A stretch of DNA of 64,000 nt, from contig OX597829.1 of assembly GCA_951406725.2 (NCBI GenBank), forward strand, positions 25,544,001 through 25,608,000. The letters are read 5' to 3'. The notes beneath the pieces were generated by a model, which was not told the DNA's origin, did not search any database, and was given only the letters and a program-made list of their open reading frames with translations. This document shows positions 21,632-61,118 of this stretch, piece after piece. A program made the position numbers and the translations under genes. Origin of the DNA: Octopus vulgaris. Taxonomy: Eukaryota. Position 1 is the stretch's first letter; each line of letters starts with the position of its first letter.

Positions 21632-22107
21632 CACACACACACATGCACGTGTATATGTATATATATGAAAATTTAAAGGAAACAGAAACCGAAGATAACA
21701 TTGATGAACAACAATTTATTTGCACCAATTATTATTTATTAATAATTTATTACTAATTATTATTGTTATTATTAATAGAAATATTAAAATTACTAAGTCT
21801 CTCTAAAAGAGAACAACGGCAGCGTTCCCGGAAAATAATAGTTATCGCCATACTAATATGGCATTCTTATAAAAATAAGAATAAAGCTGTCCGCTTATTA
21901 GCTCCATGAGGCCATCGCCTTAAGTTAGCTATTTGATACACAAACTGTATCCATATAACCTTCGAACAAGAGACTTAGTAATTTTAGAGAGACTTAGTAA
22001 TTTTAATATTTCTATTATTGAAAACAAGTGGATGTATTCCACCAAAGCTAGGTAAATAAAACCTTCGAACAGAGATTGTCAGAAGCGACACCTACTGGTC
22101 TGGCTAC

Positions 22108-22149
22108 GCTGCATTGAAAAGGGGCAATACCCCGAAACGCGTCTGTAGC
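22108..22149 (+). ncRNA. Minimal type I hammerhead ribozyme, U3-A8 variant (unit 1)
   Basis: Stem I gctgca/tgtagc; core TTGAAAA; stem II gggg-caata-cccc; GAA; palindromic stem III ACGCGT; predicted GUC cleavage after 22143. Confidence 0.8.
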
Positions 22150-22470
22150 TGCCGGTCAAGTAGTGTGGAGCGACTGACCTCCCTTGTTCGAAGGTTATAT
22201 GGATACAGTTTGTGTATCAAATAGCTAACTTAAGGCGATGGCCTCATGGAGCTAATAAGCGGACAGCTTTATTCTTATTTTTATAAGAATGCCATATTAG
22301 TATGGCGATAACTATTATTTTCCGGGAACGCTGCCGTTGTTCTCTTTTAGAGAGACTTAGTAATTTTAATATTTCTATTATTGAAAACAAGTGGATGTAT
22401 TCCACCGAAGCTAGGTAAATAAAACCTTCGAACAGAGATTGTCAGAAGCGACACCTACTGGTCTGGCTAC

Positions 22471-22513
22471 GCTGCATTGAAAAGGGGCAATACCCCCGAA
22501 ACGCGTCTGTAGC
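22471..22513 (+). ncRNA. Minimal hammerhead ribozyme (unit 2)
   Basis: Same fold as unit 1, with one extra C in stem/loop II. Confidence 0.77.
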
Positions 22514-22834
22514 TGCCGGTCAAGTAGTGTGGAGCAACTGACCTCCCTTGTTCGAAGGTTATATGGATACAGTTTGTGTATCATAAAGCTAACTTAAGGC
22601 GATGGCCTCATGGAGCTAATAAGCGGACAGCTTTATTCTTATTTTTATAAGAATGCCATATTAGTATGGCGATAACTATTATTTTCCGGGAACGCTGCCG
22701 TTGTTCTCTTTTAGAGAGACTTAGTAATTTTAATATTTCTATTATTGAAAACAAGTGGATGTATTCCACCAAAGCTAGGTAAATAAAACCTTCGAACAGA
22801 GATTGTCAGAAGCGACACCTACTGGTCTGGCTAC

Positions 22835-22876
22835 GCTGCATTGAAAAGGGGCAATACCCCGAAACGCGTCTGTAGC
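22835..22876 (+). ncRNA. Minimal hammerhead ribozyme (unit 3)
   Basis: Identical to the unit 1 motif. Confidence 0.8.
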
Positions 22877-23196
22877 TGCCGGTCAAGTAGTGTGGGCGAC
22901 TGACCTCCCTTGTTCGAAGGTTATATGGATACAGTTTGTGTATCAAATAGCTAACTTAAGGTGATGGCCTCATGGAGCTAATAAGCGGACAGCTTTATTC
23001 TTATTTTTATAAGAATGCCATATTAGTATGGCGATAACTATTATTTTCCGGGAACGCTGCCGTTGTTCTCTTTTAGAGAGACTTAGTAATTTTAATATTT
23101 CTATTATTGAAAACAAGTGGATGTATTCCACCGAAGCTAGGTAAATAAAACCTTCGAACAGAGATTGTCAGAAGCGACACCTACTGGTCTGGCTAC

Positions 23197-23238
23197 GCTG
23201 CATTGAAAAGGGGCAATACACCGAAACGCGTCTGTAGC
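23197..23238 (+). ncRNA. Minimal hammerhead ribozyme (unit 4, stem II mismatch)
   Basis: Same fold; stem II is gggg/cacc. Confidence 0.7.
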
Positions 23239-23499
23239 TGCCAGTCAAGTAGTGTGGAGCGACTGACCTACCTTGTTTGAAGGTTATATGGATACAGTTT
23301 GTGTATCAAATAGCTAACTTAAGGCGATGGCCTCATGGAGCTAATAAGCGGACAGCTTTATTCTTATTTTTATAAGAATGCCATATTAGTATGGCGATAA
23401 CTATCATTATTGTTATTATTTGCACCAATTATTATTTATTAATTATTATTATTATTATTATTATTATTTATTATTATTATCAATTGTTTATCAATGCTA

Positions 23500-24295
23500 T
23501 TGTTTATCAAGATAGCCACCTTGTACATCTTACATGTAATAATTTATGAGGATTTGTTTGAGTAAATGCCTGAAATTCTTCATATTCCTGCAGTCTCTAT
23601 GGGCTATTTGAAAGGAATGAATATATGCTTCTAGCAAGTTCTTATAAATATGAAAGTAACTCTGAACATGCCTTTGATGCACAGATGTGTATAGAGTGAC
23701 AGACATAAACCTGAATAAAGAGAGAGGAAACTTTGTTCTTCAGTAATGCCTGCATACCTCCCTTCTGCCCCATCATTACACTAGCATTGTCACTGGCAAA
23801 TCCTATCAAATTTTCAAAAGGAAGATCATGTAAGGTGAAGAATCTTTCAATAGAGGAAAAAATTCCATTAGCAGAGCAATCATTCGCTTCCAAAAGAAAT
23901 AACTATCAATAAGTTTTTGAGCGCTACAATCATAAAATCTAGCTGACAGAACAAACTGTTTTTTTTTTTGTACTTACATCAGTAGTTTCATCAACAATTA
24001 ATAAAAACTTGCACTCTTTTAACTGTTTAATGAGGTTTTCAAAGAAATAAGGGCCTAAAACATTTTTATATATTTGAGTAGCTTTGGTTCTTGCACATTT
24101 AATATCTTTAACTATTTTGAATCAGGATGTGCATTCTGAATTAGTCCAGGTAAATTAGTCTCACTGGTAAGTTATGTTCTGCAATGAAGGAACAAAGCTT
24201 AAACTCTGCAGAGGTTATGTTTATAATATGAACAGAAGTTGTAGGCTGCAAAATGCCGGTCAGTTTTCCACTTTTATTTTCTGAATTAACATTTT
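23500..24295 (-). pseudogene. hAT-family transposase remnant (ZNF862-like)
   Basis: Minus-strand peptides CSFIAEHNLP, KCARTKATQ, LIVDETTDVS, LIGFASDNASVMMG and VCHSIHICAS (CxxH-like region), with frameshifts. Confidence 0.85.
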
Positions 24296-24299
24296 TAGT

Positions 24300-24636
24300 A
24301 TTGCAGCATGGAAGGTGTTTATAAGCCATTTAAGAAACACACAAAATCCGTTAGATTCACTTCAACATTTAAATTTAATTTGTCAAAATATTTTCGTTGA
24401 TTTGAGACCGCGACCTGTTCACTGACAAAATTCCGTGCAGCATGGAATTTTGTCAGTGAACAGGTTGTGGTCTCAAATCAACGAAAATATTTTGACAAAT
24501 TCAATTTAAATGTTGAAGTGAATCTAACGGATTTTGTGTGTTTCTTAAATGGCTTATAAACACCTTCCATGCTGCAATTGTTTTTGTTCCAGCACAAGAT
24601 CTCAGATCAAGTCACTTGCTATGCAAGTACATCTCA
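24300..24636. repeat. Long palindromic repeat (pLTR-like inverted pair) with hammerhead-like folds
   Basis: 24300-24434 and 24444-24578 are near-perfect reverse complements. The same family occurs at 33047-33362. Confidence 0.85.
24449..24499 (+). ncRNA. Putative minimal hammerhead, G3-C8 variant
   Basis: Stem I tttgtca/tgacaaa; core GTGAACA plus one extra G; stem II gttg/caac; GAA; palindrome AATATT; U17. Confidence 0.5.
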
Positions 24637-25319
24637 ATTTTTAATATGTTTATCCATTTTTCCATGCCTCTCCAGACGAGTTACACTGTCTAGAATTTCA
24701 TGACAAAATTTACAGTATGCTCTTTTGATATTTGTTTTACTTGGTTCTAACCATGATGAAAACTGAGAATCCAATAAAAGTTTGTTTGATAATTTATGAT
24801 TCTATTGTTTAATTCTTTCCTTTGGTGGAGTTAAACCAAAGTCAATTTCATCACTGCTTTTATCTTTTGCATTCTTGCTCATCATGAGGGTTATAAATCA
24901 CTCATAACTAATAAAAGTTTGATGAGATAATAAGGAAGCACTTGTCACTTATGTATAAAACATGCTACTGACTGGCATTAGAGGTGGCAACCCGGTGATA
25001 TTGGATGGTACATATGATACACGTATTGAACACGTTCTATACCAACTAGCTACCAATTAGCTATATATAAACTGCCTTGTTATAAAATGTGCCAAAATAT
25101 ATTTTGATATAAAATAGTTAATCTAATAATAATATAATGTATTTATTGTTACAGTGTTTACTCAGATATGCTGTAAACTTATTTTTTTTACATAAAGTTT
25201 GAAAATTTGAAAATATACCAAATTATTGCAGTGCAATACCAAAAGTATTACTGCACTCAAAAAGTACCAAATACCAGTGCTCCAATACCAACCATTCAGA
25301 GTAGTGGACACAACAGGCT

Positions 25320-25720
25320 CCAAAAGGGTGGCCAAAGGTTAGCTGTTATCTACTACATCCGGATTCAGGTATATATAACAGAGAGAGAGAGAATTTCACT
25401 AAGCGTACACTACAAAAGTACCAGGTTTAGAAAGCCTGCTTCAGCCATTTGTCTCTATCTTTGCTTACAGTTCCCAATGCACCAGGAACCACAGGCATAA
25501 CCTTTACAGTTCTCATACTCCCAAATTCTTCCTGTTTCAAATTTTAAGGGATTGTATTTTTTTTTTTTGGTTTTTTGTCCTCTTTCTTTACCATCCCGGA
25601 ATCAAATGAGCATAATGGATCAGTTAGTAAGCAACTTCGCTTTTCTTTATCTATAACTGTTATGTCTGGTCTATTATTTTCTAAAGTCTTGTCCATTTGA
25701 ATAGTCCCACAAAATCTTAC
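25320..25720 (-). mobile_element. 3' fragment of an REL-endonuclease non-LTR retrotransposon (R2/R4/NeSL-like)
   Basis: IQMDKTLENNRPDITVIDKEKRSCLL: the RPD motif of the restriction-like endonuclease, followed by a degenerate GALG segment. Confidence 0.65.
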
Positions 25721-25721
25721 A

Positions 25722-25957
25722 CTCCTCCTTCTCTTCTTCTTCTTCTTCATCTTCATCTTCATCTTCTTCATCTTCATCTTCTTCTTCCTTCTTCTTCTTC
25801 TTCTTCTTCTTCTTCTTCTTCTTCTTCTTCTTCTTCTTCTTCCTCTTCCTTCTTCTTCTTCTTCTTCTTCTTCTTCTTCTTCTTCTTCTTCTTCTTCTCC
25901 TCCTCCCCTCCTCCTCCTACACCACCACCGCCGCCGCCGCCACCACCACCACCACCT
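25722..25957. repeat. (CTT)n/(CAT)/(CCT)/(CCA/CCG) trinucleotide tract
   Basis: Direct inspection. Confidence 0.95.
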
Positions 25958-26736
25958 CATATGTGTCCGAAGCTTGCACTGGGTACAATGTATGGAGTTT
26001 CTACCAACACCCTTCTGGTCTTAAGACATGGTCTTACTGCTGGATGCCTTTTCCTGATGCTAATGCTTACCTGTTTTTCAAATAAGGCATCCATTATTGC
26101 TCATAGCATCAAAGGTGCAAAGCAGATGATTTGCTGAGAGGTAAGAAGCACAGGAATATCACTGCTTGTAGGTTGTAACTTTCAAGTGAGCACAAATGTA
26201 AACAGCAATACAAACATACATATATGTACACACACACGCACACACACATGTGTACACACACTACACATATACATACACACACATGCACACAAACAGTCAC
26301 TTCTCCCCAATACACACACCACCAATGGAACAGGGTTTCAAAGAATCAAACAAAACTCACATTAAGCTCTCTGCCTGGTGTGTGGCTATCAGGAAAGACT
26401 ACAGTTAAGGCTTGGATGTAACCTCCGCATTCTTCTGAAAATTCAGGAATCATAATGATGTAAAGTATATATATATATATATATAAATTGACCAAATAAG
26501 TGAAGTGAGAGAATAGCTGTTTATTCCATTATTTGACAGCTGTTTCATAATCCATGCCAATTACAATAACCAACGCTACATCATCCATCACACATATATA
26601 AAATATGAATATAAATATATGTATATATCTGACAGTCATTTTCCATCAAGCAAATTCCCTCACTATATATGTGTAATACAATATAGAAGTAGAAAATGAA
26701 AGAAAGTGAAAGAAAAGGGAAATAAAGAAAGCTTCT

Positions 26737-26997
26737 TATTTCTTTATTGTCCACAAGGGGCTAAACATAGAGGGGACAAACAAGGAGAGACAAAGGGATT
26801 AAGTCGATTACATCAACCCCAGTGCGTAACTGGTACTTAATTTATCGACCCCCAAAAGGATGAAAGGCAAAGTCAAACTCAGCGGAATTTGAACTCAGAA
26901 TGTAATGGCAGATGAAATACCGCTAAGCATTTCGCCCGGCATGCTAACGGTTCTACCAGCGGCGAGCTGGCAGAACCATTAGCATGCTGGCAGAAAC
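26737..26997 (-). mobile_element. tRNA-derived SINE (family B) with inverted 5' head
   Basis: Reverse complement of the 27677 copy. TSD gaaagcttct at 26727-26736 and 26998-27007. Confidence 0.85.
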
Positions 26998-27107
26998 GAA
27001 AGCTTCTAATAATGCAGAAAGTCTTACAAAAAATTTATTATTTCAAGCACAAAGGCTTATCTTCAGAAGGAGGCAGTCCAGGAAATGTGCATTTACATCA
27101 ATCTCAT

Positions 27108-27517
27108 TACTCTTTACTCTTTTACTTGTTTCAGTCATTTGACTGCGGCCATGCTGGAGCACCGCCTTTTAGTCGAGCAAATCGACCCCGGGACTTATTC
27201 TTTGTAAGCCCAGTACTTATTCTAACGGTCTCTTTTGCCGAACCGCTAAGTAACGGGGACGTAAACACACCAGCATCGGTTGTCAAGCAATGCTAGGGGG
27301 ACAAACACAGACACACAAATACACACATACATATACATATATATATACATATATACGACAGGCTTCTTTCAGTTTCCGTCTACGAAATCCACTCACAAGG
27401 CTTTGGTCGGCCCGAGGCTATAGTAGAAGACACTTGCCCAAGGTGCCATACAGAGGGACTGAACCCGGAACCATGTGGTTGGTAAACAAGCTACTTACCA
27501 CACAGCCACTCCTGTGC
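27108..27517 (-). mobile_element. tRNA-derived SINE (family A)
   Basis: On -, head with A box TGGCTGTGTGG and B box GGTTCAGTCCC; (AAGAGTA)-like tail. Confidence 0.9.
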
Positions 27518-27676
27518 TATTCTATTTTATTCTATTTTATTTTATTTTATAAAACTTTCTGTGCTGTTTGAAGCTTTTTTTATTTTCCTTATGCACAAAC
27601 ACACACGCATATGAGTATGCATGTGTGCACATACAGTCACATGTGATGGTAAGCAACTAATTAATATAAAACAAAG

Positions 27677-27910
27677 GTGGCGAGCTGGCAGAAACGTTAG
27701 CACGCCGGGCGAAATGCGTTGCCGTATTTCGTCTGCTGTATTTCGTATTTCGAGTTCAAATTCCGCCAAGATTGACTTTGCCTTTCATCCTTTTGGGGTC
27801 GATAAATTAAGTACCAGTTACGCACTGGGGTCGATGTAATCGACTTAATCACTTTGTCTGTCCTTGTTTGTCTCCTCTGTGTTTAGCCCCTTGTGGGTAG
27901 TAAAGAAAGA
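27677..27910 (+). mobile_element. tRNA-derived SINE (family B), full length
   Basis: TSD aatataaaacaaag (27663-27676 and 27911-27924); gagttcaaattcc B box; core gcctttcatccttttggggtcgataaa. Confidence 0.9.
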
Positions 27911-28801
27911 AATATAAAACAAAGTGGAAGAATGATTGATAGAGTATTATTCTAACTGTTACTACAACTCTCACTTGTGTTTTGGTGGCTCTCAGGTGCT
28001 TTACATGAAATATCCAAATTGGTAATTAATGGTTTGAAATTTTGACTCAAGGCCAAAAATTTTGGGGAAAGGAATAAATCGATTAGATTGATGCCAGTGC
28101 ACAACTGGTATTTACTTTATTGACTCCAGAAGTATGAATGCCAAAGTCAACCTTGGAAGAATTCAAACTCAGAATGTAAAGATGTACGAAATGCTGCCAA
28201 GCATTTTGCCCAGTGGTAATTGTTAAAAATGATAAATCTAATGAGAGATTGTTTATAACTGGTATTTTGAAAACATTGTTTGTATTATATGTATGCATGC
28301 ATGTATGTGTGTGTATGTATGCATACACACACACACAGACACACACACACATGATCTTTCTTTCTTTTCTTGACTGCCGGCCGCCAACACCTCTTATGTC
28401 CATCCTATGTCCATCTCCTTTAGGCTTTCACTTCATACATGCCCACTCAATTGGATTTGTTTTCAGTCGAAAGACACATGTTATTTTCTTGTTTGTTTTT
28501 GTAATTGTGTACCATGTTCTCCGTTTTTTGCTTTTTTGCTTTTGTTGTCGTACATATTCGTGAGCTTTCTTACAAAGGGGTCTAATGCTCTTAGCTTAGA
28601 CTTTTTTGGGGGCATCCAGATCAAAACATTTCAAGTGTAACTGCCCAAAATGGTTGTGACTTCTGGTACTTGACTGACAAAAGAGCCAAGAATGACCAGT
28701 CTTTTTTTAGCCTATCCTTCTAATTGTTGTTTCTCTTGTTTGCCTTTGTACCGTCTATCTGTCTGAATGTTTTATTGTCCTTTATTGCATTTTTGTCCCA
28801 T

Positions 28802-28802
<1 letters not shown>

Positions 28803-28877
<75 letters not shown>

Positions 28878-28907
28878 GTATGTGTGTGTATGTGTGTGTG
28901 TGTATGA

Positions 28908-28947
<40 letters not shown>
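28803..28947. repeat. (TA)n/(TG)n microsatellite
   Basis: Direct inspection. Confidence 0.9.
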
Positions 28948-28951
<4 letters not shown>

Positions 28952-29670
28952 TCATTAAGTATGAAATTTGTAGTAAGGTATATGGTAAACTTTTGCACTT
29001 TATAAAATATTTTTACATTGTTTTTTTGCTATTTTTGTTTAGAGATAGATAAATTGGAAATTCGTACAGTTTTGAAATATGAGTTCTTTCTTGGAAATGC
29101 AGCATAACAGCTCGGAATATTAATGGAGTATTTCATTCTAATGTTATTACACAACAGACAGTATCAAATTGGTTTGAAAAATTTCGTTCTGGTAACTTTG
29201 ACCTCACAAATGAGCAACGCGGTTGACTAGAAACAAAAGTAGATAATAACGAACTGAAAGCCACTGTCGAGTCAGATCCATCTCAAAGTGCCCGTGAATT
29301 ATTGTTGTTGTTTGGTGTTAGCAAGCAAACAATATTGACTCGCCTAGTTCAAATCGGTAAAGTAAAAAAGTTGGATAAGTGGGTTCCACATGAACTCAAT
29401 GAAAATCAGAAACAACAATGTTTGGAAGCCTGCATTATGCCACTTTCTTGTCACAAAAAGGAATCATTTTTGAATCGAATTGTAACATGTAATGAGAAAT
29501 GGATCCAGTACAACAACCGTAAATGTTCAGCACAATGGTTGAACAAAGACGAGCTACCAAACCACAGTCCAAAAAGCAAAATTCATCAAAAGAAGCTGAT
29601 GGTGTGTGTTTAGTGGTCTGGCACAGGTGTGATCCATTATGATTTCATTAAACCTAGCTCATCAATCACG
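28947..29670 (+). pseudogene. Mariner transposase, 5' half (cecropia/Hsmar1-like), truncated
   Basis: KKLDKWVPHELNENQK..RIVTCNEKWIQYNN..KKLMVCV*W..GVIHY. Interrupted at about 29671 by another repeat. Confidence 0.9.
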
Positions 29671-29833
29671 ACTGGCAGGATGAAGCAGCTGACCTCCCTT
29701 GTTCGAAGGTTTTTAATGGACGCAGGTTCATATGTCAAATAGCTAGCTTGAGGCGGTGGCCTCATGGAGCTAACCAGCGACAGCTTTAGTCTTATATTTA
29801 TAAGACTGCCATATTAGTATGGCGATAACTATT
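29671..29833 (+). repeat. Diverged partial copy of the 363-bp unit
   Basis: ctgacctcccttgttcgaagg ... gccatattagtatggcgataactatta is shared with the array; the ribozyme part is absent. Confidence 0.85.
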
Positions 29834-29990
29834 AATATATATATATATAAGACTGAGGGCTTCGAATGTCCTGTCTGTGTTTGTTGTATCGTCTTCTAAG
29901 TTTTTATGCGTTCTTGTCTCAGTTTGTATTTTTCTACATATCATAATATATATATATATATATATATCATACACACAATATGAACATCGC

Positions 29991-30072
<82 letters not shown>

Positions 30073-30413
30073 TGTGTGTGTGTACATGGATATATAAAAA
30101 TATAAATATTATTGCAGATGCATACGCTTATACATATATACATGCAGCTTTCTGTCCATTTATACAAACTACGCAAGTATAACATACATCAATCTGAACA
30201 AGTCTATCTTGTCAATGCATTGTAATCTCTCTACAAATCTTTATTTTCACATGGATCTCCATTCATATAATTTACTCTTTTTAGTTTTGATATTTTAACC
30301 TTCTTTGTTTTTTTTTTATCTCTCAGTCTATATTGTTAATGTCCCAGAGGACACCGAGAACATTGATTGCAATTATAAGATATTCTTCCATCGAACACAA
30401 TGATATACTGACT

Positions 30414-30467
<54 letters not shown>

Positions 30468-30799
30468 TGGAGATGCAAGCACTCATGTTTATGCATGTGT
30501 ACACATACACACCCATATACTCACACTTCTGGATATGAATTTCATAGAGAATACAGATAGATACCAATTCATGGCACGCAAACACTGATGCTACACATAT
30601 ACCACACAGTAATTCAATGGAAATGATTCTACAATTTCACATACATACATAAGCATCACTCTACTCATCTAGGCTCTTTGATTATTTGACATGATTTTTA
30701 TTGTATATACTGGCAGAAATATTGCCCTCCTGGTGGTTTTCTGCTGGGACAATGTAATGCATGCTTGTAGGAAACTGCTATGAAGTATCTTTCTATATA

Positions 30800-31140
30800 A
30801 ATCTGAGTCTGAGATCCCCTTCGGTCATAACACTGACCGTAGGGTTGCACCTAGAAAGTTACCCTCCCAGACACAAGTTCAGGCAAGGTTGTTTTTATGG
30901 AAGACCACCAATCGCCCATGCATACCAGCCTTCCCTCTCCATGCCACCAGTGTTATCCAAGGGAAATCAACGGCCGATACAGCTTTGGTACCTGTGATGT
31001 TGCAACTTATTTCTACAGCTGAGTGAACTGGAACAACGTGAAATAAAGTGTCTTGCTCAAGAACACAACATGCAGCCCGGTCTGGGATTTGAGCTCACAA
31101 CCTCATGATCGTAAGCTCGATGCTCTAACCACTGAGCCAT
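30800..31140 (-). mobile_element. tRNA-derived SINE (third family)
   Basis: On -, head atggctcagtggttagagcatcg..gagctcaaatccc is tRNA-like. Confidence 0.65.
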
Positions 31141-31174
31141 ACATACATACATATATACATATATACATATACAT

Positions 31175-31728
31175 GAAGAGCACCTATCGAGTGTTGGGCC
31201 TTATGTTGGCAATGATGAATGACTGAGACCTTTGACAATATGCTATGCTTGAGAAGAAGGCTCATCAATCTAAGTAAAATTGCAGTTGTGGCAGATACCG
31301 GTGTCACACAAATGGCACCTGTGCTGGTGGTAGATAAAAGCACCTTTCGAGTGTTGGGCTCCACAGAGGCAAGGACTGAGACCATTTGGCATTATGCCAG
31401 GCTTTGAGCATTAGGCCTTGTGAAGGCAATGGCCGAGTCCATTTGACATTATGCCATGCTTGAGAAGAAGACCCATCAAACCAAGTAAAACCACAGTTGT
31501 GAGAGATACCAGTGTCATGCAAATTGCACCTGTGACAGTGGCAAGTAAAAGTACCCATTACACTCTTAGAGTGGTTGGTTTTAGGAAGGGCATCCAGCTG
31601 TAGATATCATGCCAAATCAGACTCTGGTGCAGCCTCCCACCTAGCTAGTCATGGTCAAACCATCCAACCTATGCCAGCATGGACAATGGACGTTAAATGG
31701 TGGTGGTGATGATGATGATGATGATGAT
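31175..31728 (+). mobile_element. RTE-tail repeat (family C) with internal duplication
   Basis: Duplicated tgcttgagaagaag..cagttgtg..gatacc unit; ends in ggaagggcatccagctg..(GAT)n. Confidence 0.7.
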
Positions 31729-31765
31729 ATAAATAATACACATATAATATATATATATATATATA

Positions 31766-33035
31766 TTGGGTTGGCAACTAAGTTCCCGCCGCTTTTTAAA
31801 ATTTTGGAATTTATTGCGTTTTTTAAATTTTGGAATCTATCTTTTTCAAGAATTCTATTTTTGAATCATTTTGGAATCTATTTTTTTTTTCTAGTTAATT
31901 TTAGTTTATTTTCAGATCATTAAAATGGAATGTCAAGTTAAGAAAAATGAGCATTTTCAACACCTCCTTTTTGCTTTTAATCAAGGTTCTAAGGCCACAA
32001 AAGCTGCTTGCAACATTTATGCTATGTATGGAGAGGGTGCCATAGATGAAAGACCTGCTCGTGATTGGTATGCCAAGTTCACAAATGGAAATTTTGACCT
32101 CAAAGACACCTCGTTCTGGCTGTCCAGTTGAGTTCGATGAAGAGCGATTAAACCAACTTTTGCATGAAAATTCTTGTCAAATGACAAGGGAACTGGCAGA
32201 GAAAATGGAATGCTCCCACACTGCTATAGAGAAGCATCTTCACTCAATGGGAAATGTTCAGAAGTATGGAGCATGGGTTCTGCATACTTTAAGTGACAAC
32301 AACAAAAATCAACAAGCCACAATCTCCTCTGGTTTGGTTGCTCATCACCGCTCAACTCATGGGCACAAGCAACAATTTATTTTGCAAATCGTTACTGGCA
32401 ATGAAAAATGGTGCCTGTACATCAATATGAAGCAATGTAAGGAATGGCTTAGCCCCGGTAAACAAGCGACACTGTGTGTAAAACAAGATCTTCGTCTGAG
32501 TAAAATAATCTGCATATGGTGGGACTGGGAAGGGATTATCCATTACGAATTGCTTGAACGGAACCAAACGGACAGCGTGGAACTATATGTTCAACAGATG
32601 GAAGATTCAACATGGCTATTCAAAAGAAAAGACCTAATCATCAGCATGGAGTTCTGCTGCACGACAACGCCCACCCTCATATCACCAATATGACCAAGGA
32701 AACCAGTCAAACGCATGGCTGGGAAATGCTGCCACACCCGCTGTAACCTCCATATTTGGCACCAATGGATTTCCACCTCTTTCGATTTCTTTCAAATGCT
32801 ATGTGTGGAGTTTTGTTCAATACTGATGCAGAATTGAGAGCTTGGTTGGATCAATTTTTGAAGTTGAAATTGGGTGATTTCTGCCAACAAAGTATTGAAA
32901 ATCTTGTTGAATGTTGGGAAGAAGTTGTAAACAACAAGGGTGAATACATTATTGATTAATTAGTTGTTATTTTTTATTAAACTTTTTAAAAAATTTAAAT
33001 AAAAAAAAACGACGAGAACTTAGTTGCCAACCTAA
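31766..33035 (+). mobile_element. Full-length mariner (DD34D) element, inactive
   Basis: 1270 bp. TIRs ttgggttggcaactaagttccc and gagaacttagttgccaacctaa, with TA on both sides. Confidence 0.93.
31925..32959 (+). pseudogene. Mariner transposase pseudogene
   Basis: Frameshifted ORFs with WVLHTL, VTGNEKW (catalytic D to N), HDNAHPH and LAPMDFHLF, ending GEYIID*. Confidence 0.92.
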
Positions 33036-33046
33036 TATATATTACG

Positions 33047-33362
33047 GAGATGTACTTGTATAGAAAGTGATCTGATCTGAGATTGTGCGCTAGAACGAAA
33101 ACAATTGCAGCATGGAAGGTGTTTATAAGCCATTTAAGAAACACACAAAATCCGTTAGATTCACTTCAATATTCAAATTTAATTTGTCAAAATATTTTCG
33201 TCACTTTGAGACCACAACCTAGCACGGAATTTTGTCAGTGAACAGGTCGTGGTCTCAAAGCGAAGAAAATGTTTTGACAAATTAAATTTAAATGTTGAGG
33301 TGAATCTAACGGATTTTGTGTGCTTCTTAAATGGCTTATAAACACCTTCCACGCTGCAGTTG
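33047..33362. repeat. Second copy of the palindromic pLTR-like repeat
   Basis: Same sequence as 24300-24636 in opposite overall orientation, with a different inversion junction (about 33220). Hammerhead-like motif at 33231-33281. Confidence 0.85.
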
Positions 33363-33373
33363 TTATATATATA

Positions 33374-33412
<39 letters not shown>

Positions 33413-33699
33413 ATGGTGATGATATATATATATATATATAAATGCAAGTAATTAGAAAATGGAGAAAAACACAGATTAACCAACACACCGCTTGGACCAC
33501 ATTTATAGCTTATTTTTTTTAATACAAAGCATGACATAACAAAATAGGTGATGTAACCTATCTGATGGCTGTTACTGATCAGTTGCCAAAATGCAGGAAT
33601 AAAGTTCTTCATCTTCATAGGGCATTCCAATTTAGGCAATGGATCTTCATCAGAGTAAAAAACAAGAGCATATAATATAAACAAAAGGTAGTTTATATC

Positions 33700-34980
33700 T
33701 TTAGACTCAGGTTATATATCCTAACATTTCTTATCTCAAATTGTTATCCCTGTCTTCTAAAAGGGAAACAGATTTCTTGCAGTTAACTACCACTTAATTT
33801 TATTCACCTCCTGTATCATCAAAATATTTGAAAGGGTAGTGTGATTAAGAATAACTAACTTCCTGGAGAGTAATAATGTTCTAAATTTCAAGCAGAATAG
33901 CTTTCATTGTGGTAGAGCCTCCCTAACAGCAGCTTTTACATAATTTTTGATGATATTCAAAAAGTTTTGGGAGAGGCTCAAACACTGATGTTATGTTGAC
34001 TTCAGTAAAGCATTTGACTGAGTCAACCACAATATTCTGTTAAAATTTTCCACTATTGAAATACATGGTAAGCTACTGTACTGGGTCATATATTTATTGG
34101 TGAATTGAACCCAACAAGTTGTGAATAATGGAATCCACTCACACCCAATAAAAGTCACCAGAGGTGTTTTTCAAAGGACTGTATTGGGCCCACATCTCTT
34201 CATAGTCAATATAAATGGTATCTCAAATGTAATCAAGTATAGTGAGAAAAAAAAATCATAGATGACTCCAAGCTCTAAAATCTATCAAAGGAGAAGACCA
34301 AACAAAGCTCCAGTCTGATCTGCATGTTGTAAGTTAATGAATAAACAGAAACATGCTGTGAATTGAGGGAAAATTTGAATTCCTGCATTTGGGAAACAAG
34401 AATGCCCTGAAACAACCATACCCTCTTCTTTGTGAAAACCACTCATGGCATCCAGTAATATCAGAGACCTTGGAGAATTTGTTGATAACAATCTCAGCTG
34501 GAATACTTACATCAGCAATAAAGTTGATATGACTCACAAAATCCTCAGAGTTTTCCTGGATACTCAGAACTTTCAGTCCAGGGAGTCAGATGTCACTATT
34601 CCCTTTCTTCTCCTCCTTTGTATAGCCATACCTAGAATACTACTGCCCCTGTGGTCTCCCCATATCAAACAGAACATTACAATAACTGGGACATCTGGGA
34701 GAGTAATTACATAAAATTATAAAAGCATGACTTGTCTTGATTATTGGGACTGCCTTAAAACAGTGAAATTCTGTTTCCTACATTGTTGTGAGTACTAAAT
34801 CATTTGCACAATGTGGAGAACATACTACCAGATTTGCCCAAACGACTTCATCATTAAGTTCATAATTCATCTAGGGCTGGAACTCCATCTTATATGCTCC
34901 TTACACAACTCAAGTCCACAAACACATAACTATATTGCAATGCAATTACTTTTCCTCTGCAGGTTTTGCTCTATTTAATA
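33700..34980 (+). mobile_element. CR1/L2-like LINE RT pseudogene fragment
   Basis: VDFSKAFD*VNH, GVFQRTVLGPHLF, DDSKL and RDLGEFVDNNLSW; degenerate. Continues briefly after the Helitron. Confidence 0.8.
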
Positions 34981-35377
34981 CTAGCAGTATCGCCCGGCGT
35001 TGCTCGGGTTTGTAAGGGAAATAACTATATAAGCATTTTTAGAGATGTAAAATATAATAGCCATCTCAATATGGTTAACCACAAAGGTGGGGGTGTTACT
35101 GTAGCTTTTTATGTTCTGAGATTTAATAATACATTTTTAGAGAGTTACTTCCCTTATATATGCCAAAAATGCATTAAAAATGGGAAAAATTGATGGTAAA
35201 TTTTAAAAAAAATCGTAGACTCATCGTAGACGCGCGCTAATACCCAGAAGGGCTCGATATGAATCACAACTATAAGATACCCGGTTTTGGTTAAACTGCA
35301 CCGCAAAATGTGGGAGTAGTTAGGAATCTAAATCGTAGGAGACAGACAGCACACAACCTCACTTTTATATATAAAGA
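34981..35377 (-). mobile_element. Non-autonomous Helitron
   Basis: On -: A|TCtttatatataaaag ... hairpin cccg-agcaacgc-cggg, then 8 nt, then CTAG|T. Inserted at an AT target with no TSD. Confidence 0.85.
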
Positions 35378-36094
35378 TTATCTGAAAATAAATCAAAGAA
35401 GAAAAAGATCCAATAAACTTCAAACTGGACACATCTCTTCAAGGGGTACCAGAAAAATCATCAATACCTGGATACATCTCAGTCAACAACATCCTTATTT
35501 GAACAGACTATGATATCACAAAACTTGACTTTTCCTTTCCTGTCCCTGTATTATACTTAAGTCATGCATTGCCTGGCATAAAGCTATGTCCTTCAATATT
35601 ATTTACCCCTCAGTTTAAGCGTTGAGGAGAGTTGTTTATTTAATCCTTGATATATATAAATATATATCAAGGATTAAATAAAAGAACCCAATAAGTGGAA
35701 AATTTAACAAAAGCATAACAAACAGAATGGAAAATTTGCAGCTAATTCCTCATCAGTCACTGTCCAAGAGATCATAGTGGTTACACACTTTCAACATTGT
35801 TACCACTCCATCTTGGCAGTGCCAAAGCAGAAAGCTTCTGGGAATAGCTAACAAACATAAGACAAGGACAAAAACAAACAAGACAAACTAAAATAATATA
35901 ACAATTGTATGTATACAAAAAGAAAAATAATAATAATTATGCATGCACAATGGGAAAAGGCCTTTCAGCCATCAAATGGATGGATGTGTATGTATATGTG
36001 TATATATATGCATTATACACGCGTGCACGCACACACACACACATTTATATGTGTAGGTATGTATTTTATATATATATGTATATATATATGTATG

Positions 36095-36149
<55 letters not shown>

Positions 36150-36159
36150 GTATATATAT

Positions 36160-36640
36160 GTAATTGTAGAAGGAGCTTGTGGTAGAGGTAGACCCAGGAA
36201 GACAGGACAAAGTGGTGAGAAAGGATCTACAGACTTTGGGATTCTCAGAGGCGATGACAGGCGATTAAGACTCTTGGGAGTTTGCTGTGCTTGAAAAGAC
36301 ATGCCAAGCTAAGCAAAAGCATGGTTGCCCTTGCATATAGGCTCGTCTCCCGCAACCCTCTCCAACTGAACATCCCTAATCTTGTGGGCTTGTAGGTGCT
36401 AGTGCCATGTAAAAAGCACTCATACAAGTATCATGTAAATGCACCTGTGCTGGTGCTGTGTCAAAGCACCCACTACACTTTGTAAAGTGGCTGGCATTAG
36501 GAAGGGCATCCAGGTGTAGAAACCATGCCAAAGCAGAGAAATGGAGCCTGGTGTAGCTCTCCAGCTTGCCAGCTCTTGTCAAACCATCCAACTGATGCCA
36601 GCATGGAAAATAGACATTAAATGATGATGGCGATGATAAT
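36160..36640 (+). mobile_element. RTE 3' end with family C tail
   Basis: [13 protein letters not shown] followed by the ggaagggcatccag..gatgatg tail; links family C to RTE 3' ends. Confidence 0.7.
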
Positions 36641-37334
36641 GTATGTATGTATGTATGTATGTATGTATGTATGTATGTATGTATGTATGTATGTATGTAT
36701 GCATGCATGCATGCATGCATGCATGTATGTATGTATGCATGCATGTATGTATGTATGTATGTGTAAGGATCAAAGTTCTTTTCCAAGCCATGGGCTCATG
36801 AGGCCAGTTTCCATGTTTCTGTGACATATATATTCCCTCCCTGGACAGGATGCTGATCTCTTGCAGGATTATTCACTTTTGCCAGCTGAATGGGTTGGAG
36901 AAATATGAAATAAAGTGCTCTTGTTAAAAACATAAAGCGTCACTTTGTCCAGGAATCAAAAGTTAACCATTAAGTTACAGGGATGTAAACAACCCAACAC
37001 TGGCTGTCAAGTGGTGGTCACATACATGCACACAAACCCATGCACACACACACACTCACACTCACACACAGGCACATACACACATATGATGACCATCATT
37101 TAGTTTTCCATCAACTAAATTCACTCACAAGGATTTGGCTAGCCCAGGGCTATATTAAAAGACATTTGACCCAGGTGATATGAAGTGGGACTGAACTTCA
37201 CCCATGTGGTTGGGAAGCAAAATTCTTATCACACAGTTTTGCCTGTACCTCTATAGTTACAGACACATCCCATGTGAAAATAAAAGTATTTTAAAAACTC
37301 AAAAATATCAACTAGATTATGACTGTGAGATAAC

Positions 37335-38035
37335 AGCTTATCTAAAGTAGCAACACTCAGCTTCCATCATGGCCTCATGATGACTCCAGAACCCGACAGA
37401 TGTGTTCCTCACTGTGTCCCTTGCAAGATCTTCAAGTACTTCCTTGACCACAGGCGCCAGCTTGACCCTGGCATTGCAGGTAGAGTGGTTGGTGTCTTTC
37501 TCAACTGTGTCTCACACATAGTAATTCTTGGAACAACAATTGGAGGAATTACAAGGTCAGAACCTGGAGCTGGTAAAGTCATCGAAATTTTCTAACAACC
37601 TCCTCTGACACTTGCTGAAGGTTTGGCAAAGAATTAAATTCTGTTGCCACAAATATGGCCTTCTTGCAGCAACCCTCACTATCCAGAGACTGACCACAAT
37701 CTCCAGCAGCTTCACATTGCTGTCTGAATTGTGCCCAAGGCTCTGTTCAAAGATATGGGGACAAATTCTGATATGTGGACACAGTCATTATACTTGCTGT
37801 GTCCCTTCATGCTGGCCTTGGCTAGGTAGTCTCTGTCCCTGCTGTTCACTACAGCCTTTACAGTGTTCATAGAGCATTGAGCACCAGTTATGATGTTGGC
37901 ATTTTGAAACTCAGTGCAAATCACCATGATACCAGTGACTTTTTTACCAATATGTGAGCCTACTTTTTCTTGGCAACAGCTTTAATCTTTAAGCTCTACA
38001 ATGCCATTGATTGTTCACCGATATATCAAACTGTT
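37335..38035 (-). pseudogene. Internally deleted Tc1/mariner-superfamily (maT/DD37D-like) transposase remnant
   Basis: N-terminal AQCSMNTVKAV. C-terminal part reads LWIVRVAARRPYLWQQ..ENFDDFTS..NYYV..VEKDTN..EAMMEAECCYF, colinear with maT-type transposases; the catalytic residues are decayed. Confidence 0.65.
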
Positions 38036-39069
38036 CCTGAAAGAAAGGAGACATAAATAATTGTGAAATTTAACCTCAACACCCTGCACATATGTATGTG
38101 TGTGTGTGTGTGCATTTATATTAGACATATGCGTACATATTATGCATATTTACTTTTATTCCACATTGAATGAGAAAAGAATTAAAGTGATTTATTTTCA
38201 TGTTTTTTGTTCTATCATCATTATTTCTCTTTTTTTTAAAAAAAATTAATTCTTCTCACATAACAGACCCAAAGGTGTTCATTAAAACATCATTAGGCTT
38301 TTTATAACAACAACAACAAAAAAAAAAGAACACAAGCAAAATAACAATGAATGATTAGCTTCATTCTCCCCCTCCCTTCCTCACCACCACCACCACCACC
38401 ACTCACACACCACAGCAATTCTCACAAAAAGAAAAGAACCGCCCCCTCCAACCAGCATTTGTTTTAGCAGTTACCTCAACTTTTTACCTTCACTATCTTC
38501 CATGTCAGTCAATAACAGCCATGGGGTTGTATTAATATCATTTATAGACATTGTTGCTATTGTTGTTGTTGTTATTATTATTACTAATATTATTATTATT
38601 TGAACTGTGTTTGACCCTAGTTTACTCTAATGTTTCCTCTTAAGAAGATAATGTCTCAATGAAAGCATTTATCTTTTTTATTTATCCATTTATTTATTTA
38701 CTATATATATATATATATATATAAATGTGAGTATGTATATTTTTAAGTATATGTTTGTTATGTGTGTGTACACTTTGTCCTCTATTATATACACATACAG
38801 TTAGGAACATATTTATATAACAAGATTTAAGCTGATATATTAAAAACTAAGAACTGTGTGTATCTTCTATTAATAAGTACCTTGATGTATGTATATGTAA
38901 AATAAAATGTGTGGGTGCGTGAGCATACATACATATATATATGTTCACACATGTAAATTAGAGTTTGTATCTACCTTGCATGTATGTATCTATTGTATGC
39001 TCATACGTATATACATACATGCACACACACATGTATGTACATAATTATAAGCAATAACATCTACTTTTT

Positions 39070-39410
39070 TTTCTTTTATCTGTTTGTCATTTGACTGCGG
39101 CCATGCTGGAGCACCAGTTTTAGTCAAACAAATCAACCATAGGACTTATTCTTTGTAAGCCTAGTAATTATTCTATCAGTCTCTTAGGCCGAACTGCTAA
39201 GTTACAGGTACGTAAACACACCAACATCAGTTGTCAAGCAATGGTGGGGGTACAAACACAAATACATAATATCAAACGCACAGTTTCCGTCTACCAAATC
39301 CACTCACAAGACTTTGGTTGGCCCGAGGCAACTTGTCCAAGGTGCTACACAGTGGGACTGAACCTGGAACCATGTGGTTGGTAAGGAAGCTACTTACCAC
39401 ACAGCCACTC
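39070..39410 (-). mobile_element. tRNA-derived SINE (family A), partly deleted
   Basis: Same sequence as the 27108 copy. Confidence 0.8.
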
Positions 39411-40139
39411 ATCACTCCCCACCTTTTTTTTCTCTTTTTTTATACTTACATGTTTCACTCATCCCACTGTCAATCACACTTTCTTCTTTTCACTGTATAA
39501 TGATTCCAATGAAAAAATAAAAGGCAAATATTTTCTTTTGTCCTAACCTCTCATATCTTTGAGACTGCACCCTCCCTTCCATTTACTATACCATGTCACC
39601 CTGTGTCATGAGTGATGGTAGAGGATCTATCTATAGTCTATCCTCTCCCTACACCTATCCTTATCCCACTTCTTTATCCCTGTCCTGGGGCCTATGTGTA
39701 AGGGATTGCATCAGATACACTCTATCATCCATTACCCACTCCCCATTTCTATTATTATCCATCCTGCTGTCTCTTCATTTACCACCTTCTCTCTCAGTTG
39801 TACTTTTGCTCACTTTTACTCAGCCAGCTTGTTTCGGGTATTTGCTCTCTTGTCTCTTCTGTTAACCCCAGTCACATCATAGGGTAGTGAGATGTATAAT
39901 TTTGTAAGTTACAGTAACATCCCATTTGTGCTGCTGGAGTTATGAACAAAGAAGATGAGGAGTCCATCCAGAGGACCCTTAGATCTATTTTGTTTCCTTC
40001 TAACCACAAATCTTAAACTGGAAATTTTCAAAAAAAGTTCTTTTGATATAGTTTTACACGATTATGAATATCATAGTTATTATTTTGAAACATTTATAAT
40101 TAAACTTTGACTGCTTCTATCTTGTTAATTTATTTTTTA

Positions 40140-40548
40140 CCTTTTACCTGCTTCAGTCATTTGATTGTTGCCATGCTGGAGCACTTCCTTGAAGGGTTTT
40201 TAGTCAAACAAATTGACTCCAGAGCATATTTTTTAAAGCTTAGTACTTACCAGTCTCTTTTGCCAAACCACTAAGTTATCAGGACATAAACACACCAACA
40301 TTGGTTTTCATGTAGTAATGGGGGACAAATAATCACAAAGACACACACACATAGATATATACACATCTATCTCTCTCTCTCTCTCTATATATATATGATG
40401 GACTTCTTTCAGTTTCTGTCAACCAAATTATCTCACAGGTTTTGTTTGGCCCAAGGCTATAACAGAAGTTATAGAAGGTGCCATGCAGTAGAACTGGACC
40501 TGGAACCATGTGGTTGAGAAGCAAGCTTTTTACCACACAGCCATACCT
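40140..40548 (-). mobile_element. tRNA-derived SINE (family A-related), older
   Basis: Diverged match to the 27108 copy. Confidence 0.7.
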
Positions 40549-41328
40549 AGTTTTAAAAAAACGAATAAGATATTTACTATTAGCTTGCCAAACTACATCT
40601 GTGTGGAAAATTTGAAAGCAAACCATTGAAAATTGAAAAGTTTTAAGTGGTTAGAAGAAAAGGAAAAAAATCTGGACCCTTTATTCTTGTCAATGACACA
40701 ACAATATTACTTTTACTAGAATATCATACAAATGCCCCTAGTACATTTCTGTAAAATGGTTGTTGCTAGGAATGACATCCAGCCATAGGAGACTACCTGA
40801 ATTAATCTCATCTGTATCATGCTGATACAGGAAAAATGGACATAAAAGCGGTGATAAGGATGCGCATACACTTACATATGTATGTACGTATATACATACA
40901 TACATACATACATAGATACATATATGTTGAAATATGAATTAGAAGCAGTGCTTGTGTTGTAAACAATATTAGCCACACATACTCAATGTATATGTTTTGC
41001 TTGTTCATCTGTAGGCTCTGATTTAGAGTGGTGGAGATGACTCTCTCAAAGTTCCAGGTGTCAAAAAACACCTGAAAGCCATAGACAAGTGAGATAACTT
41101 GCCAAATATCTATCTACAGAGGTTGGATGAAATAATGGAAACACCTTAAAATTTCAAACAAATTTATTTTATTATCGAGTAGGACCACCTTTGGCAGTAA
41201 TTACAGCTTCAATTCTATGAGGTATGGACTCGTACAAAGTTTGAATTGCTTCCAAAAGAATTTTTGTCCATTCTTCAGCTAAAACAGTCTCTAGTTCTTG
41301 TAGTGATGATGGTGGAAGATATTGATTT

Positions 41329-41700
41329 ACTCTTTTACTCTCTTTTACTTGTTTCAGTCATTTGACTGCGGCCATGCTGGAGCACCGCCTTTAGTCGAGC
41401 AAATCGACCCCGGGACTTATTCTTTTAAGCCCAGTACTTATTCTATCGGTCTCTTTTTGCCGAACCGCTAAGTGATGGGGACGTAAACACAATAGCATCG
41501 GTTGTCAAGCAATGCTAGGGGGACAAACACATATATACGACAGGCTTCTTTCAGTTTCCGTCTACCAAATCCACTCACAAGGCATTGGTCGGCCCGGGGC
41601 TATAGCAGAAGACACTTGCCCAAGATGCCATGCAGTGGGACTGAACCCGGAACCATGTGGTTGGTTAGCAAGCTACTTACCACACAGCCACTCCTGCGCC
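41329..41700 (-). mobile_element. tRNA-derived SINE (family A) inserted in the Tc1
   Basis: Near full-length match to the 27108 copy; it splits the transposase C-terminus. Confidence 0.9.
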
Positions 41701-41800
41701 TATTCCTTACTTTTTTTTTAAATGTACCATGAATGTTCAATAATATTGAGATCTGGGGACTGTGGTGGCCAAATAAGATGTTCAACTTCACTAGAATGTT

Positions 41801-43215
41801 ATTTACATTTGATGGATATTTGTCCTTATCTTGTTTGTTGTTAACACCATGTTTCGGCTGATATACCCTCCAGCCTTCTTCAGGTTTCTTGGGGAAATTT
41901 TGAACCTGGGTTCCCATTCCTAAGGTATTTTTCGATGTTATTATTATTATTATCATTATTGTTCATGTCACTGCTTGGAATCGAACTTGGAATTCTGGGG
42001 TTAGTAGCCTGCACTCTTAACCACTATGCCATATACCTGTGAGCAATTATGGAGTGAATTTTATGGGGCTTATAAATCTAATATTTTTCTATCCTTCCTT
42101 AATACCGGTTCCCATATGCTGTTCATATCTGCACTCGGCCTGCTTAGGAGGTTGTTGTGTCCTAGCATATGTGCTGCTTCTTTTAGTTTTCGTATTTTTC
42201 AGTGGTGTTCTCTGTCTATTATTTTAACTTCATCCCACAGGGGGAAGCGGTCTCCATTTTTCCATACATGATCAGCTATACACGATTTATCAATATCTCC
42301 TTGTGTCACAGCTTTGCGATGTTTGTCAACCCTTATTTTGATGGGGCGGCATGTTTCACCTTTGTATAATCTACCACAGCTGCATGGGATGGAGTACACT
42401 CAATTTTTGGTCATATTCTCTTGTATTGGTGGTTTTACTCGAAGGAGATATTTGTGAAGTGTTGTATTACTCTTGAATACTGTCCTGATGTCATATGGGC
42501 CGCATATCTTTTGTATCTTTTCGGAGAGGCCTTTCACATAGGGTAGACAGTTTATTGGCCTCATCTTTTCTTTGGAGCGGATAGTATACTTTTGGGGTAG
42601 TTGTTGCTTAACAGATCATTATTGAACTTGATCATTTCTTTGTGGTGTGTATCACGATCCCTACTTATATTCTTGCACGATGTTTTAGGCACTGAGCAAT
42701 CCCTCTCTTTACACTGAATGGATGGGGGGAATTGAAGTTGAGGTATTGTCCAGTAAAGGTCGGCTTGCAGTATATAGATGTCCTGAATCCATACTTGGTG
42801 CAAGTTATTAATACAGCCAGGAATGCCAGCTGATTGTCTTTTTCCTTTTCCATTGTGAACTGTATGGATGGCTTTATTGAGTTCACATGATTTAACAGCA
42901 CTTGGACATCTTCCTGGTGGGGCCAGATTATAAAGGTGTCATCAACATATCGTAGCCATAATGTTGGTTCAATTCCAAGCAGTGACCTGAACAATAACAA
43001 TAATAATAATAATAATAGTAATAATGATAATAATAATAACATTGAAAAATACCTCAGGAATGAGAACTCAGGTTCGAAATTTCCCCAAGACACATAAAGA
43101 AGGCTGGAGGGTATATCAGCCAAAACGTTGTGTTAACAACAAACAAGATGAGGACAAATATCCGTCGAATGTAAATAATGTACATAATAAATCATCTCTT
43201 AAATATAGAACTGTA
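41801..43215 (-). mobile_element. 5'-truncated Penelope-like element with inverted pLTRs
   Basis: RT WLRYVDDTF..IQFTMEKE..KPTFTGQYLNFNSPHP and GIY-YIG VYSIPCSCGRLYKGET..IADH. Inverted terminal copies at 41801-41975 and 42980-43180. TSD ttcactagaatgtt (41787-41800, 43216-43229). Confidence 0.92.
41843..41890 (-). ncRNA. Degenerate minimal hammerhead in Penelope pLTR
   Basis: On -: CTGAAGA-a-ggctg-gagggtatat-cagcc-GAAAC. The cleavage region is mutated relative to the other pLTR copy. Confidence 0.55.
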
Positions 43216-61050: not shown

Positions 61051-61118
61051 TATGTAGCGAAACCAGTCGAATGTCTTTCAAATAAATGGCTACTTAAATA
61101 GTTGCCTTATAAAACAAT

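What the first reader, a model, noticed from the sequence alone, without database searches (positions are those of the whole stretch)
22108..43134. Three hammerhead core variants (U3-A8, G3-C8, C3-G8) in three repeat families within 21 kb
Seen: cores TTGAAAA, GTGAACA and CTGAAGA, each followed by stem II, GAA and a palindromic stem III (ACGCGT, AATATT, ACGT). Positions 3 and 8 stay complementary in all three, as the established tertiary pair demands. Inference: this genome may hold a large, under-counted set of variant ribozyme retroelements. Distinct palindromes could make dimerisation family-specific.
Basis: inference. Interest (0 to 1): 0.7.

Follow-up and report, generated by a model that had tools for sequence, protein, structure and literature searches.

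The report
Swapped-core hammerheads in Penelope retroelements
Three unrelated jumping-DNA families here each carry a predicted self-cutting hammerhead RNA whose two paired core letters differ (U-A, G-C, C-G); the G-C form sits in a protein-coding Penelope-like element whose sister keeps C-G, but cutting is untested, likely not needed for each jump, and the palindromes are shared between families.

Summary
The three cores are real and belong to three Penelope-linked families. F1 is a 364-nt protein-less retrozyme-type tandem (U3-A8; 1,253 exact cores genome-wide). F2 is the terminal repeat of an autonomous RT + GIY-YIG element (G3-C8; 4,152). F3 is the terminal repeat of another Penelope element with the ordinary C3-G8 core (4,000), and neither F3 copy in the window is intact. 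The 3-8 pair covaries between families: F1 versus a C3-G8 retrozyme, and F2 versus a 55%-identical sister element with C3-G8. In 1.2 Mb of random genome, 17 of 19 descriptor hits were complementary (reversed control 0 of 2). U3-A8, Penelope hammerheads and palindrome-driven dimers are published; natural G3-C8 was not found in my searches, with two key papers unreadable. This scan noted such variants before on other DNA of this genome. Activity is untested.

The parts
21982..23408 (+). F1: 3.9 head-to-tail copies of a 364-nt non-coding retrozyme-type unit, 98% alike
   Evidence: TRF, BLAST; unit folds with z = -7.35
21763..21973 (-). F1 inverted 5'-truncated copy with the 64-nt tail; no ribozyme core
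   Evidence: inverted repeat I1
22100..22155 (+). F1 type I hammerhead, U3-A8 core at 22114-22120, loop 2 CAAUA, palindrome ACGCGU, predicted cut after 22143
22463..22519 (+). F1 hammerhead copy 2 (core 22477; one extra C)
22827..22882 (+). F1 hammerhead copy 3 (core 22841)
23189..23244 (+). F1 hammerhead copy 4 (core 23203; stem II mismatch)
24300..24438 (-). F2 terminal-repeat arm, G3-C8 core at 24422-24416
24440..24636 (+). F2 terminal-repeat arm plus about 57-nt tail; G3-C8 core at 24456-24462, extra G, palindrome AAUAUU, U17
33047..33220 (-). F2 arm with tail, 5'-truncated inside the ribozyme (no core)
33222..33358 (+). F2 arm, G3-C8 core at 33238-33244, stems II and III damaged
41799..41963 (-). 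F3 3' pseudo-LTR; C3-G8 core CTGAAGA at 41883-41877; stem III decayed (ACAT/G)
42073..42985 (-). broken Penelope-type ORF fragment: RT C-terminus (YVDD) followed by a GIY-YIG-like region without a zinc-finger linker
   Evidence: translation; RVT_1 only E = 0.02, no Pfam hit for the endonuclease part; motif reading from established knowledge
43041..43180 (+). F3 inverted pseudo-LTR; core decayed to ATAAAGA at 43094-43100, palindrome ACGT intact
29681..29834 (+). older F1 fragment (86%), no core

Best explanation
These are three separate Penelope-linked retroelement families whose ends carry type I hammerhead motifs that likely cut weakly, probably as dimers or with help from the element's protein; the 3-8 core pair has been swapped between lineages while staying paired in each family's main form, but cutting is likely dispensable for an individual insertion. 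Shown: the motifs, family sizes, F2's link to a full-length RT + GIY-YIG element, covariation of stems and of the 3-8 pair, insertion shape (tandem plus inverted truncated arms, tail on one arm, AT-microsatellite targets). Inferred: F1 is a non-autonomous retrozyme copied by a Penelope enzyme; the Penelope protein cuts both DNA strands and reverse-transcribes mostly uncut RNA; helix III forms between two neighbouring copies through the palindrome; long-term selection on master elements keeps the core paired. Palindromes differ because any self-complementary word works, not as a family code.
For: F2 arms sit as direct repeats 4.3-4.9 kb apart around an RT + CX3C-X2C linker + GIY-YIG ORF (L268-L270; GIY-YIG E = 1.8e-5). 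Its sister element (55% amino-acid identity) has the same motif in its terminal repeat with C3-G8; 6 of 14 pairs are changed on both sides, including 3-8. F1, its subfamilies and the C3-G8 retrozyme F4: 97% of cells paired, 10 of 19 pairs changed on both sides, including 3-8. Free position 7 varies between subfamilies while 3 and 8 do not. CAAUA-loop class: 1,290 of 1,297 matches complementary. All three multi-copy families seen with a non-C at position 3 (F1, F2, L009 family) have the complement at 8; chance per family about 0.27. The F1 dimer is predicted more stable than two monomers (-53.3 vs -47.2 kcal/mol) and contains the intermolecular helix III. Uncut templates: 8 of 12 random F2 arms start 1-10 nt around an AG about 55 nt upstream of the cut site; about 18 of 53 listed matches are truncations at the cut site against 3,077 intact, and a control position gives 12 of the first 100 of 235. 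PMC11167929 (passages read) reports for an anole element that C3G/G8C partly rescues, that cutting needs the protein and that cutting is not needed for insertion in vitro.
Against: No cleavage was measured. Copy counts are pseudo-replicates of a few masters, and the alignments hold only about 2-4 independent lineages. Within F2 there is no compensation: 94 of 100 listed position-3 changes are single, 6 are double and 4 of those complementary, about what decay gives. G3·G8 copies (138) outnumber the C8-to-U transition (about 117) and the reciprocal G3-to-C change (15), so a mismatch core was copied many times. Very abundant families carry A6U or U4C, and the youngest sister element A9C, changes expected to weaken catalysis. 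F1 and F4 share detectable sequence only over 22 of 27 ribozyme bases, so their swap may be convergence. F2's palindrome duplex is very weak (-1.6 kcal/mol) and its window copies do not fold better than shuffles (z -0.3 to -1.0). No autonomous partner was found for F1.
Confidence: 0.72

Rival explanations
1. The folds are kept as RNA structures for the Penelope protein or for transcription and splicing, and catalysis is vestigial in F2 and the A6U/A9C families; the paired 3-8 letters are a leftover.
For: Mobile G3·G8 sub-lineage; A6U family is the most numerous seen (7,266); no excess of 5' ends at the cut site; insertion does not need cutting in vitro (PMC11167929, passages).
Against: A vestigial core would not be expected to change both 3 and 8 and end up paired in three families; GAA, UGA and helix III palindromy persist across 55%-identical sisters.
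Confidence: 0.18
2. One reading: each family's palindrome is a selected code that restricts trans-dimerisation and cleavage to its own RNA.
For: Homo-duplexes of the 6-8 nt palindromes are predicted stronger than most hetero-duplexes, e.g. F1:F1 -8.9 vs F1:F4 -1.8; many different palindromes occur.
Against: ACGT is shared by F3, the U4C family and the A6U family; ACCGGT by F4 (C3-G8) and the L009 family (U3-A8); ACGCGT by F1 and two C3-G8 motifs. F1:F3 (-3.3) is as stable as F3:F3 (-3.1). A dimer also needs helix I exchange, and tandem copies supply a partner in cis, so specificity needs no code (inference).
Confidence: 0.07
3. F2's G3-C8 motif is a chance reading of an AT-rich fold-back MITE, not a hammerhead.
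For: Window arms form near-perfect 139-nt palindromes; Rfam gives no hammerhead among the 150 best-listed window matches; weak folding.
Against: The arm is the terminal repeat of a full-length Penelope-like element and aligns pair by pair with the sister element's C3-G8 motif.
Confidence: 0.03

Closest known systems
Minimal type I hammerheads in pseudo-LTRs of metazoan Penelope-like elements (Cervera and De la Peña 2014, PMC4209133; parts 1-2 of 4 of the text read, supplement file 2 searched, file 1 not searchable)
   Same: F2 and F3: in pseudo-LTRs, extra nucleotide between 9 and 10.1, palindromic helix III, mostly solo truncated or opposite-strand pairs; that paper reports U3-A8 (about 1,300 hits in Schistosoma) and lists the core UUGAAAA
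   Different: G3-C8 cores were not found in its text or supplement file 2; no octopus entry in file 2
Metazoan non-LTR retrozymes (Cervera and de la Peña 2020, PMC7229834, passages; Li, Clavereau and Pollet 2026, 10.64898/2026.07.22.740005, parts 1-2 of 5 read)
   Same: F1: 364-nt, low-GC, non-coding, highly self-paired tandem unit with one type I hammerhead; proposed non-autonomous Penelope derivative
   Different: U3-A8 core; circular RNA and cleavage not shown; no cephalopod or mollusc terms in the 2026 preprint
C-terminal-endonuclease Penelope-like elements with a zinc-finger linker, Neptune/Nematis type (Craig et al. 2021, PMC8557442, passages)
   Same: F2 parent: RT, CX2-5CxxC linker, C-terminal GIY-YIG, partial tandems, inverted truncated copy, tail on one end, microsatellite targets
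   Different: clade not fixed by a tree; tail about 57 nt rather than 30-40; G3-C8 core
Anole Poseidon element PAc (PMC11167929, passages)
   Same: two RT start sites giving a tail, ATT targets, unprocessed RNA as main template; engineered C3G/G8C partly active
   Different: here G3-C8 is natural and the major form of a family; no biochemistry here
Natural U3-A8 hammerheads (Perreault et al. 2011, PMC3088659, section 8 read)
   Same: 3-8 covariation in nature
   Different: that section names only U3-A8, not G3-C8

Membership tests
Type I hammerhead ribozyme | Core N3-U-G-A-N-N8-A, GAA, A15.1-U16.1, H17 at a three-helix junction | tested here: met
   F1 3 of 4 window copies, F2 1 of 3, F3 0 of 2 (intact F3 copies elsewhere)
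Type I hammerhead ribozyme | Helices I-III supported by covariation | tested here: met
   10 of 19 and 6 of 14 pairs changed on both sides; slid controls far lower; few independent lineages
Type I hammerhead ribozyme | Watson-Crick 3-8 pair | tested here: met
   major form of each family paired; exception G3·G8 in 138 of about 4,450 matched F2 copies
Type I hammerhead ribozyme | Site-specific self-cleavage after position 17 | not testable with these tools
   needs in vitro assay or raw RNA ends
Endonuclease-bearing Penelope-like element (F2 parent) | Single ORF with RT and C-terminal GIY-YIG | tested here: met
   1,025-aa open frame in L324, YVDD motif, GIY-YIG E = 1.8e-5; Pfam gave no RT hit for it
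Endonuclease-bearing Penelope-like element (F2 parent) | Pseudo-LTRs with hammerhead, partial tandem or inverted truncated copy, tail | tested here: met
Neptune or Nematis clade | CX2-5CxxC linker before the endonuclease | tested here: met
   CQSNCAVC in the translation; criterion from PMC8557442
Neptune or Nematis clade | RT phylogeny with reference elements | not tested
   no reference set at hand
Penelope/Poseidon-type element (F3 parent) | RT followed directly by GIY-YIG, no linker finger | tested here: inconclusive
   seen in a broken 900-nt fragment; RVT_1 E = 0.02, no endonuclease hit; no full-length copy fetched
Non-LTR retrozyme (F1) | Non-coding 170-400 nt tandem unit, one type I hammerhead per unit, dispersed | tested here: met
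   no shared flanking ORF in 30 loci
Non-LTR retrozyme (F1) | Highly self-paired monomer | tested here: met
   -126.9 kcal/mol, z -7.35
Non-LTR retrozyme (F1) | Unit-length circular and linear RNA in vivo | not testable with these tools
   only assembled contigs were available; tandem DNA gives the same joints

The most novel reading that the evidence does not exclude
The F2 lineage records how a ribozyme's core pair flips in nature: from C3-G8 (kept by the sister element) through a catalytically dead but still mobile G3·G8 state (138 dispersed copies, including a full-length older element) to G3-C8 (over 4,000 copies). Penelope insertion tolerates a dead hammerhead, yet selection restores the pair, so the ribozyme has an occasional function that this natural allelic series makes testable.
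Probability: 0.2. Interest if true: 0.65.

Novelty: new variant of a known kind. Interest (0 to 1): 0.38.

Why it matters
The role of hammerheads in Penelope-like elements is still open. This genome offers matched natural alleles (C-G, U-A, G-C, G·G, plus U4C, A6U, A9C) in families of known copy number, so cleavage rate can be compared with transposition success. It also shows that C3-G8 descriptors miss thousands of copies. The general system and the U3-A8 variant are already published, which limits the surprise.

Tried and rejected
Rfam scan of the window: no hammerhead among the 150 listed of 172 matches. Generic pattern for non-C3/non-G8 cores with ACGT: 406 matches vs 567 control, too loose to be informative. 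A3-U8 family: an apparent one from that list (L289) reads TGCATATG after a TA microsatellite in other copies, so it was not confirmed; only scattered A3-U8 copies of F2 were seen. Of 7 non-complementary CAAUA-loop matches, 4 of the 6 inspected are truncation or deletion artefacts. The L078 hit is probably coding sequence (stems not kept among copies) and L117 a chance singleton. My pattern was one place off, so it tested position 3 only; my first structure string was misregistered and replaced. L311-L318 share flanks and count as one event, not as separate G3·G8 insertions. Expression: no RNA holder listed; contigs of guessed-RNA runs cover F1 and F2, show head-to-tail F1 joints and leave the unique flank nearly empty, but give no ends or strand, so no verdict. 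No autonomous partner for F1 in 30 loci. Lünse et al. 2016/17 and Przybilski and Hammann 2007 were not held; I recall the first as reporting many dimer-cleaving Penelope hammerheads and cannot say whether it lists natural G3-C8. Searches bearing on 'not in print'. Supplements of the bioRxiv preprint and file 1 of PMC4209133 were not seen.
Full report
Setting. The window lies at G000:C16:25544001-25608000 in a 2.8-Gb animal genome, AT-rich and full of microsatellites; by inference a cephalopod. All genome counts below are exact-pattern counts, so they are lower bounds for older families, and copies of one family are not independent.

Observation. The three cores exist, with corrections. F1 (TTGAAAA) is in four tandem units, three intact. 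F2 (GTGAACA) is in three arms of two fold-back pairs, one passing a strict descriptor, each with an extra G before stem II. C3-G8 is the textbook core. A strict scan of 120 evenly spaced 10-kb stretches gave 11 hits in 5 loci, all complementary; ten shuffles gave 12 hits, 4 complementary. A relaxed scan gave 19 hits, 17 complementary, against 2 hits, 0 complementary, in reversed sequence; 7 of the 19 are one tandem array. About 80 copies of 15 families span a core in the same 1.2 Mb, so three families in 21 kb is ordinary here.

F1. A 364-nt unit, 3.9 copies plus an inverted truncated piece. The first look found 931 candidates; the 40 scored are 100% identical over the ribozyme. In 30 loci the insertions are partial multimers, often with an inverted arm, ending at unit position about 337 or 64 nt further, with no shared ORF. 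This is the tandem, inversion and tail footprint described for Penelope-like elements (PMC8557442, passages). The unit folds far better than shuffles. The pattern class with loop CAAUA has 1,253 U3-A8, 37 C3-G8 (a second retrozyme, F4, 359 nt) and 7 other matches. Across F1, its subfamilies and F4, 10 of 19 pairs change on both sides, including 3-8, though F1 and F4 are alike only in the ribozyme.

F2. Short copies are about 200 nt. A rare upstream extension (42 candidates) led to full-length elements: direct repeats 4.3-4.9 kb apart around an RT, zinc-finger linker and GIY-YIG ORF. A protein search found a young sister family, 55% identical, whose terminal repeat holds the same motif with C3-G8; 6 of 14 pairs differ on both sides. 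This is the best evidence that G3-C8 is a true swapped core. With matched patterns F2 has 4,152 G3-C8, 138 G3·G8, 150 G3 with U or A at 8, 15 C3·C8 and 1 C3-G8 copies. The G8 class exceeds even the transition class (78 of the first 100 of the 150 are U), is dispersed, is shared by both arms in three listed pairs and occurs in an older long element, so it was inherited, not only decayed. F2 5' ends cluster at an AG that follows a CTAAC and pyrimidine tract in the full-length element (8 of 12 random arms; 3 more are alignment ends 13-15 nt further in), not at the cut site; truncations at the cut site are no commoner than at a control position, by hand count of the listings (the control's denominator was not measured).

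F3. Terminal repeats in inverted orientation around a broken RT and GIY-YIG-like fragment. 4,000 matches; of the first 100, 92 are C3-G8, 8 single changes, none compensated; position 7 is U 73, A 23, C 4.

Palindromes. They are shared across families and cores, and F1:F3 is predicted as stable as F3:F3. Family-specific dimerisation is therefore not supported as a selected code, although longer palindromes do favour self pairing.

Mechanism. Established (papers cited): short palindromic helix III implies dimers and low activity (PMC4209133); G8C kills and C3G partly rescues (PMC8495972, one passage; PMC11167929, passages); Penelope insertion uses uncut RNA in vitro and the ribozyme is protein-assisted (PMC11167929). 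Shown here: anatomy, counts, covariation, uncut templates, a mobile mismatch lineage. Inferred: weak or assisted cleavage that trims precursors or, for F1, releases monomers; selection on masters keeps the pair.

Novelty. U3-A8 is published, with this very core. Retrozymes as Penelope dependants are published. Natural G3-C8 as the major form of an autonomous element, its sister swap and the G3·G8 lineage were not found in my searches, but two key papers were unreadable. Earlier notes of this scan describe the same kinds of variants on other DNA of this genome. Verdict: real, mostly known; a useful variant series; interest 0.38.

Noticed in passing
L084:9392-9551 and many loci; genome-wide: Very abundant family with a hammerhead-like motif whose position 6 is U (CTGTNGA), position 7 free, C3-G8 kept in 95 of the first 100, palindrome ACGT; 7,266 exact matches.
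   Followed up: partly
L114:5149-5273 and about 12 of 120 random loci: Abundant family with U4C core (CCGACGA) and ACGT palindrome.
   Followed up: partly
L325 (G000:C22:44548500-44556500): Young sister Penelope-like family with 1,312-aa open frames in many copies; its hammerhead has C at position 9 and a near-palindrome AGAACT; an older copy (L147) has A9.
   Followed up: partly
L269:5040-5090; F2 short copies: Branch-point, pyrimidine-tract and AG motif directly upstream of the F2 ribozyme; most short copies start there, several with an extra G before AG. Start site with copied cap, or splice acceptor; unresolved.
   Followed up: partly
L009:1836-1960: Second U3-A8 family (ACCGGT palindrome), 11 exact dispersed matches, all U3-A8.
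   Followed up: yes
L083, L101, L118, L165, L168, L020, L023, L193: Further C3-G8 hammerhead motifs with long stem II or 8-12 nt helix III; in L083 versus L119 the palindrome AGAGCTCT is replaced by ACAGCTGT.
   Followed up: no
L244:1846-3018: Tandem of seven short F2 arms separated by TA tracts.
   Followed up: no
window 59749-61077 (-): 442-aa single-exon ORF with a C-terminal bZIP domain (bZIP_2, E = 6e-17).
   Followed up: no
window 29227-29613 and 32046-32693 (+): Mariner-type transposase fragments (Transposase_1).
   Followed up: no
window 15306-16607, 27167-27331, 39118-39282, 41389-41553: Other dispersed repeats: a 63-nt-subunit family and SINE-like copies.
   Followed up: no
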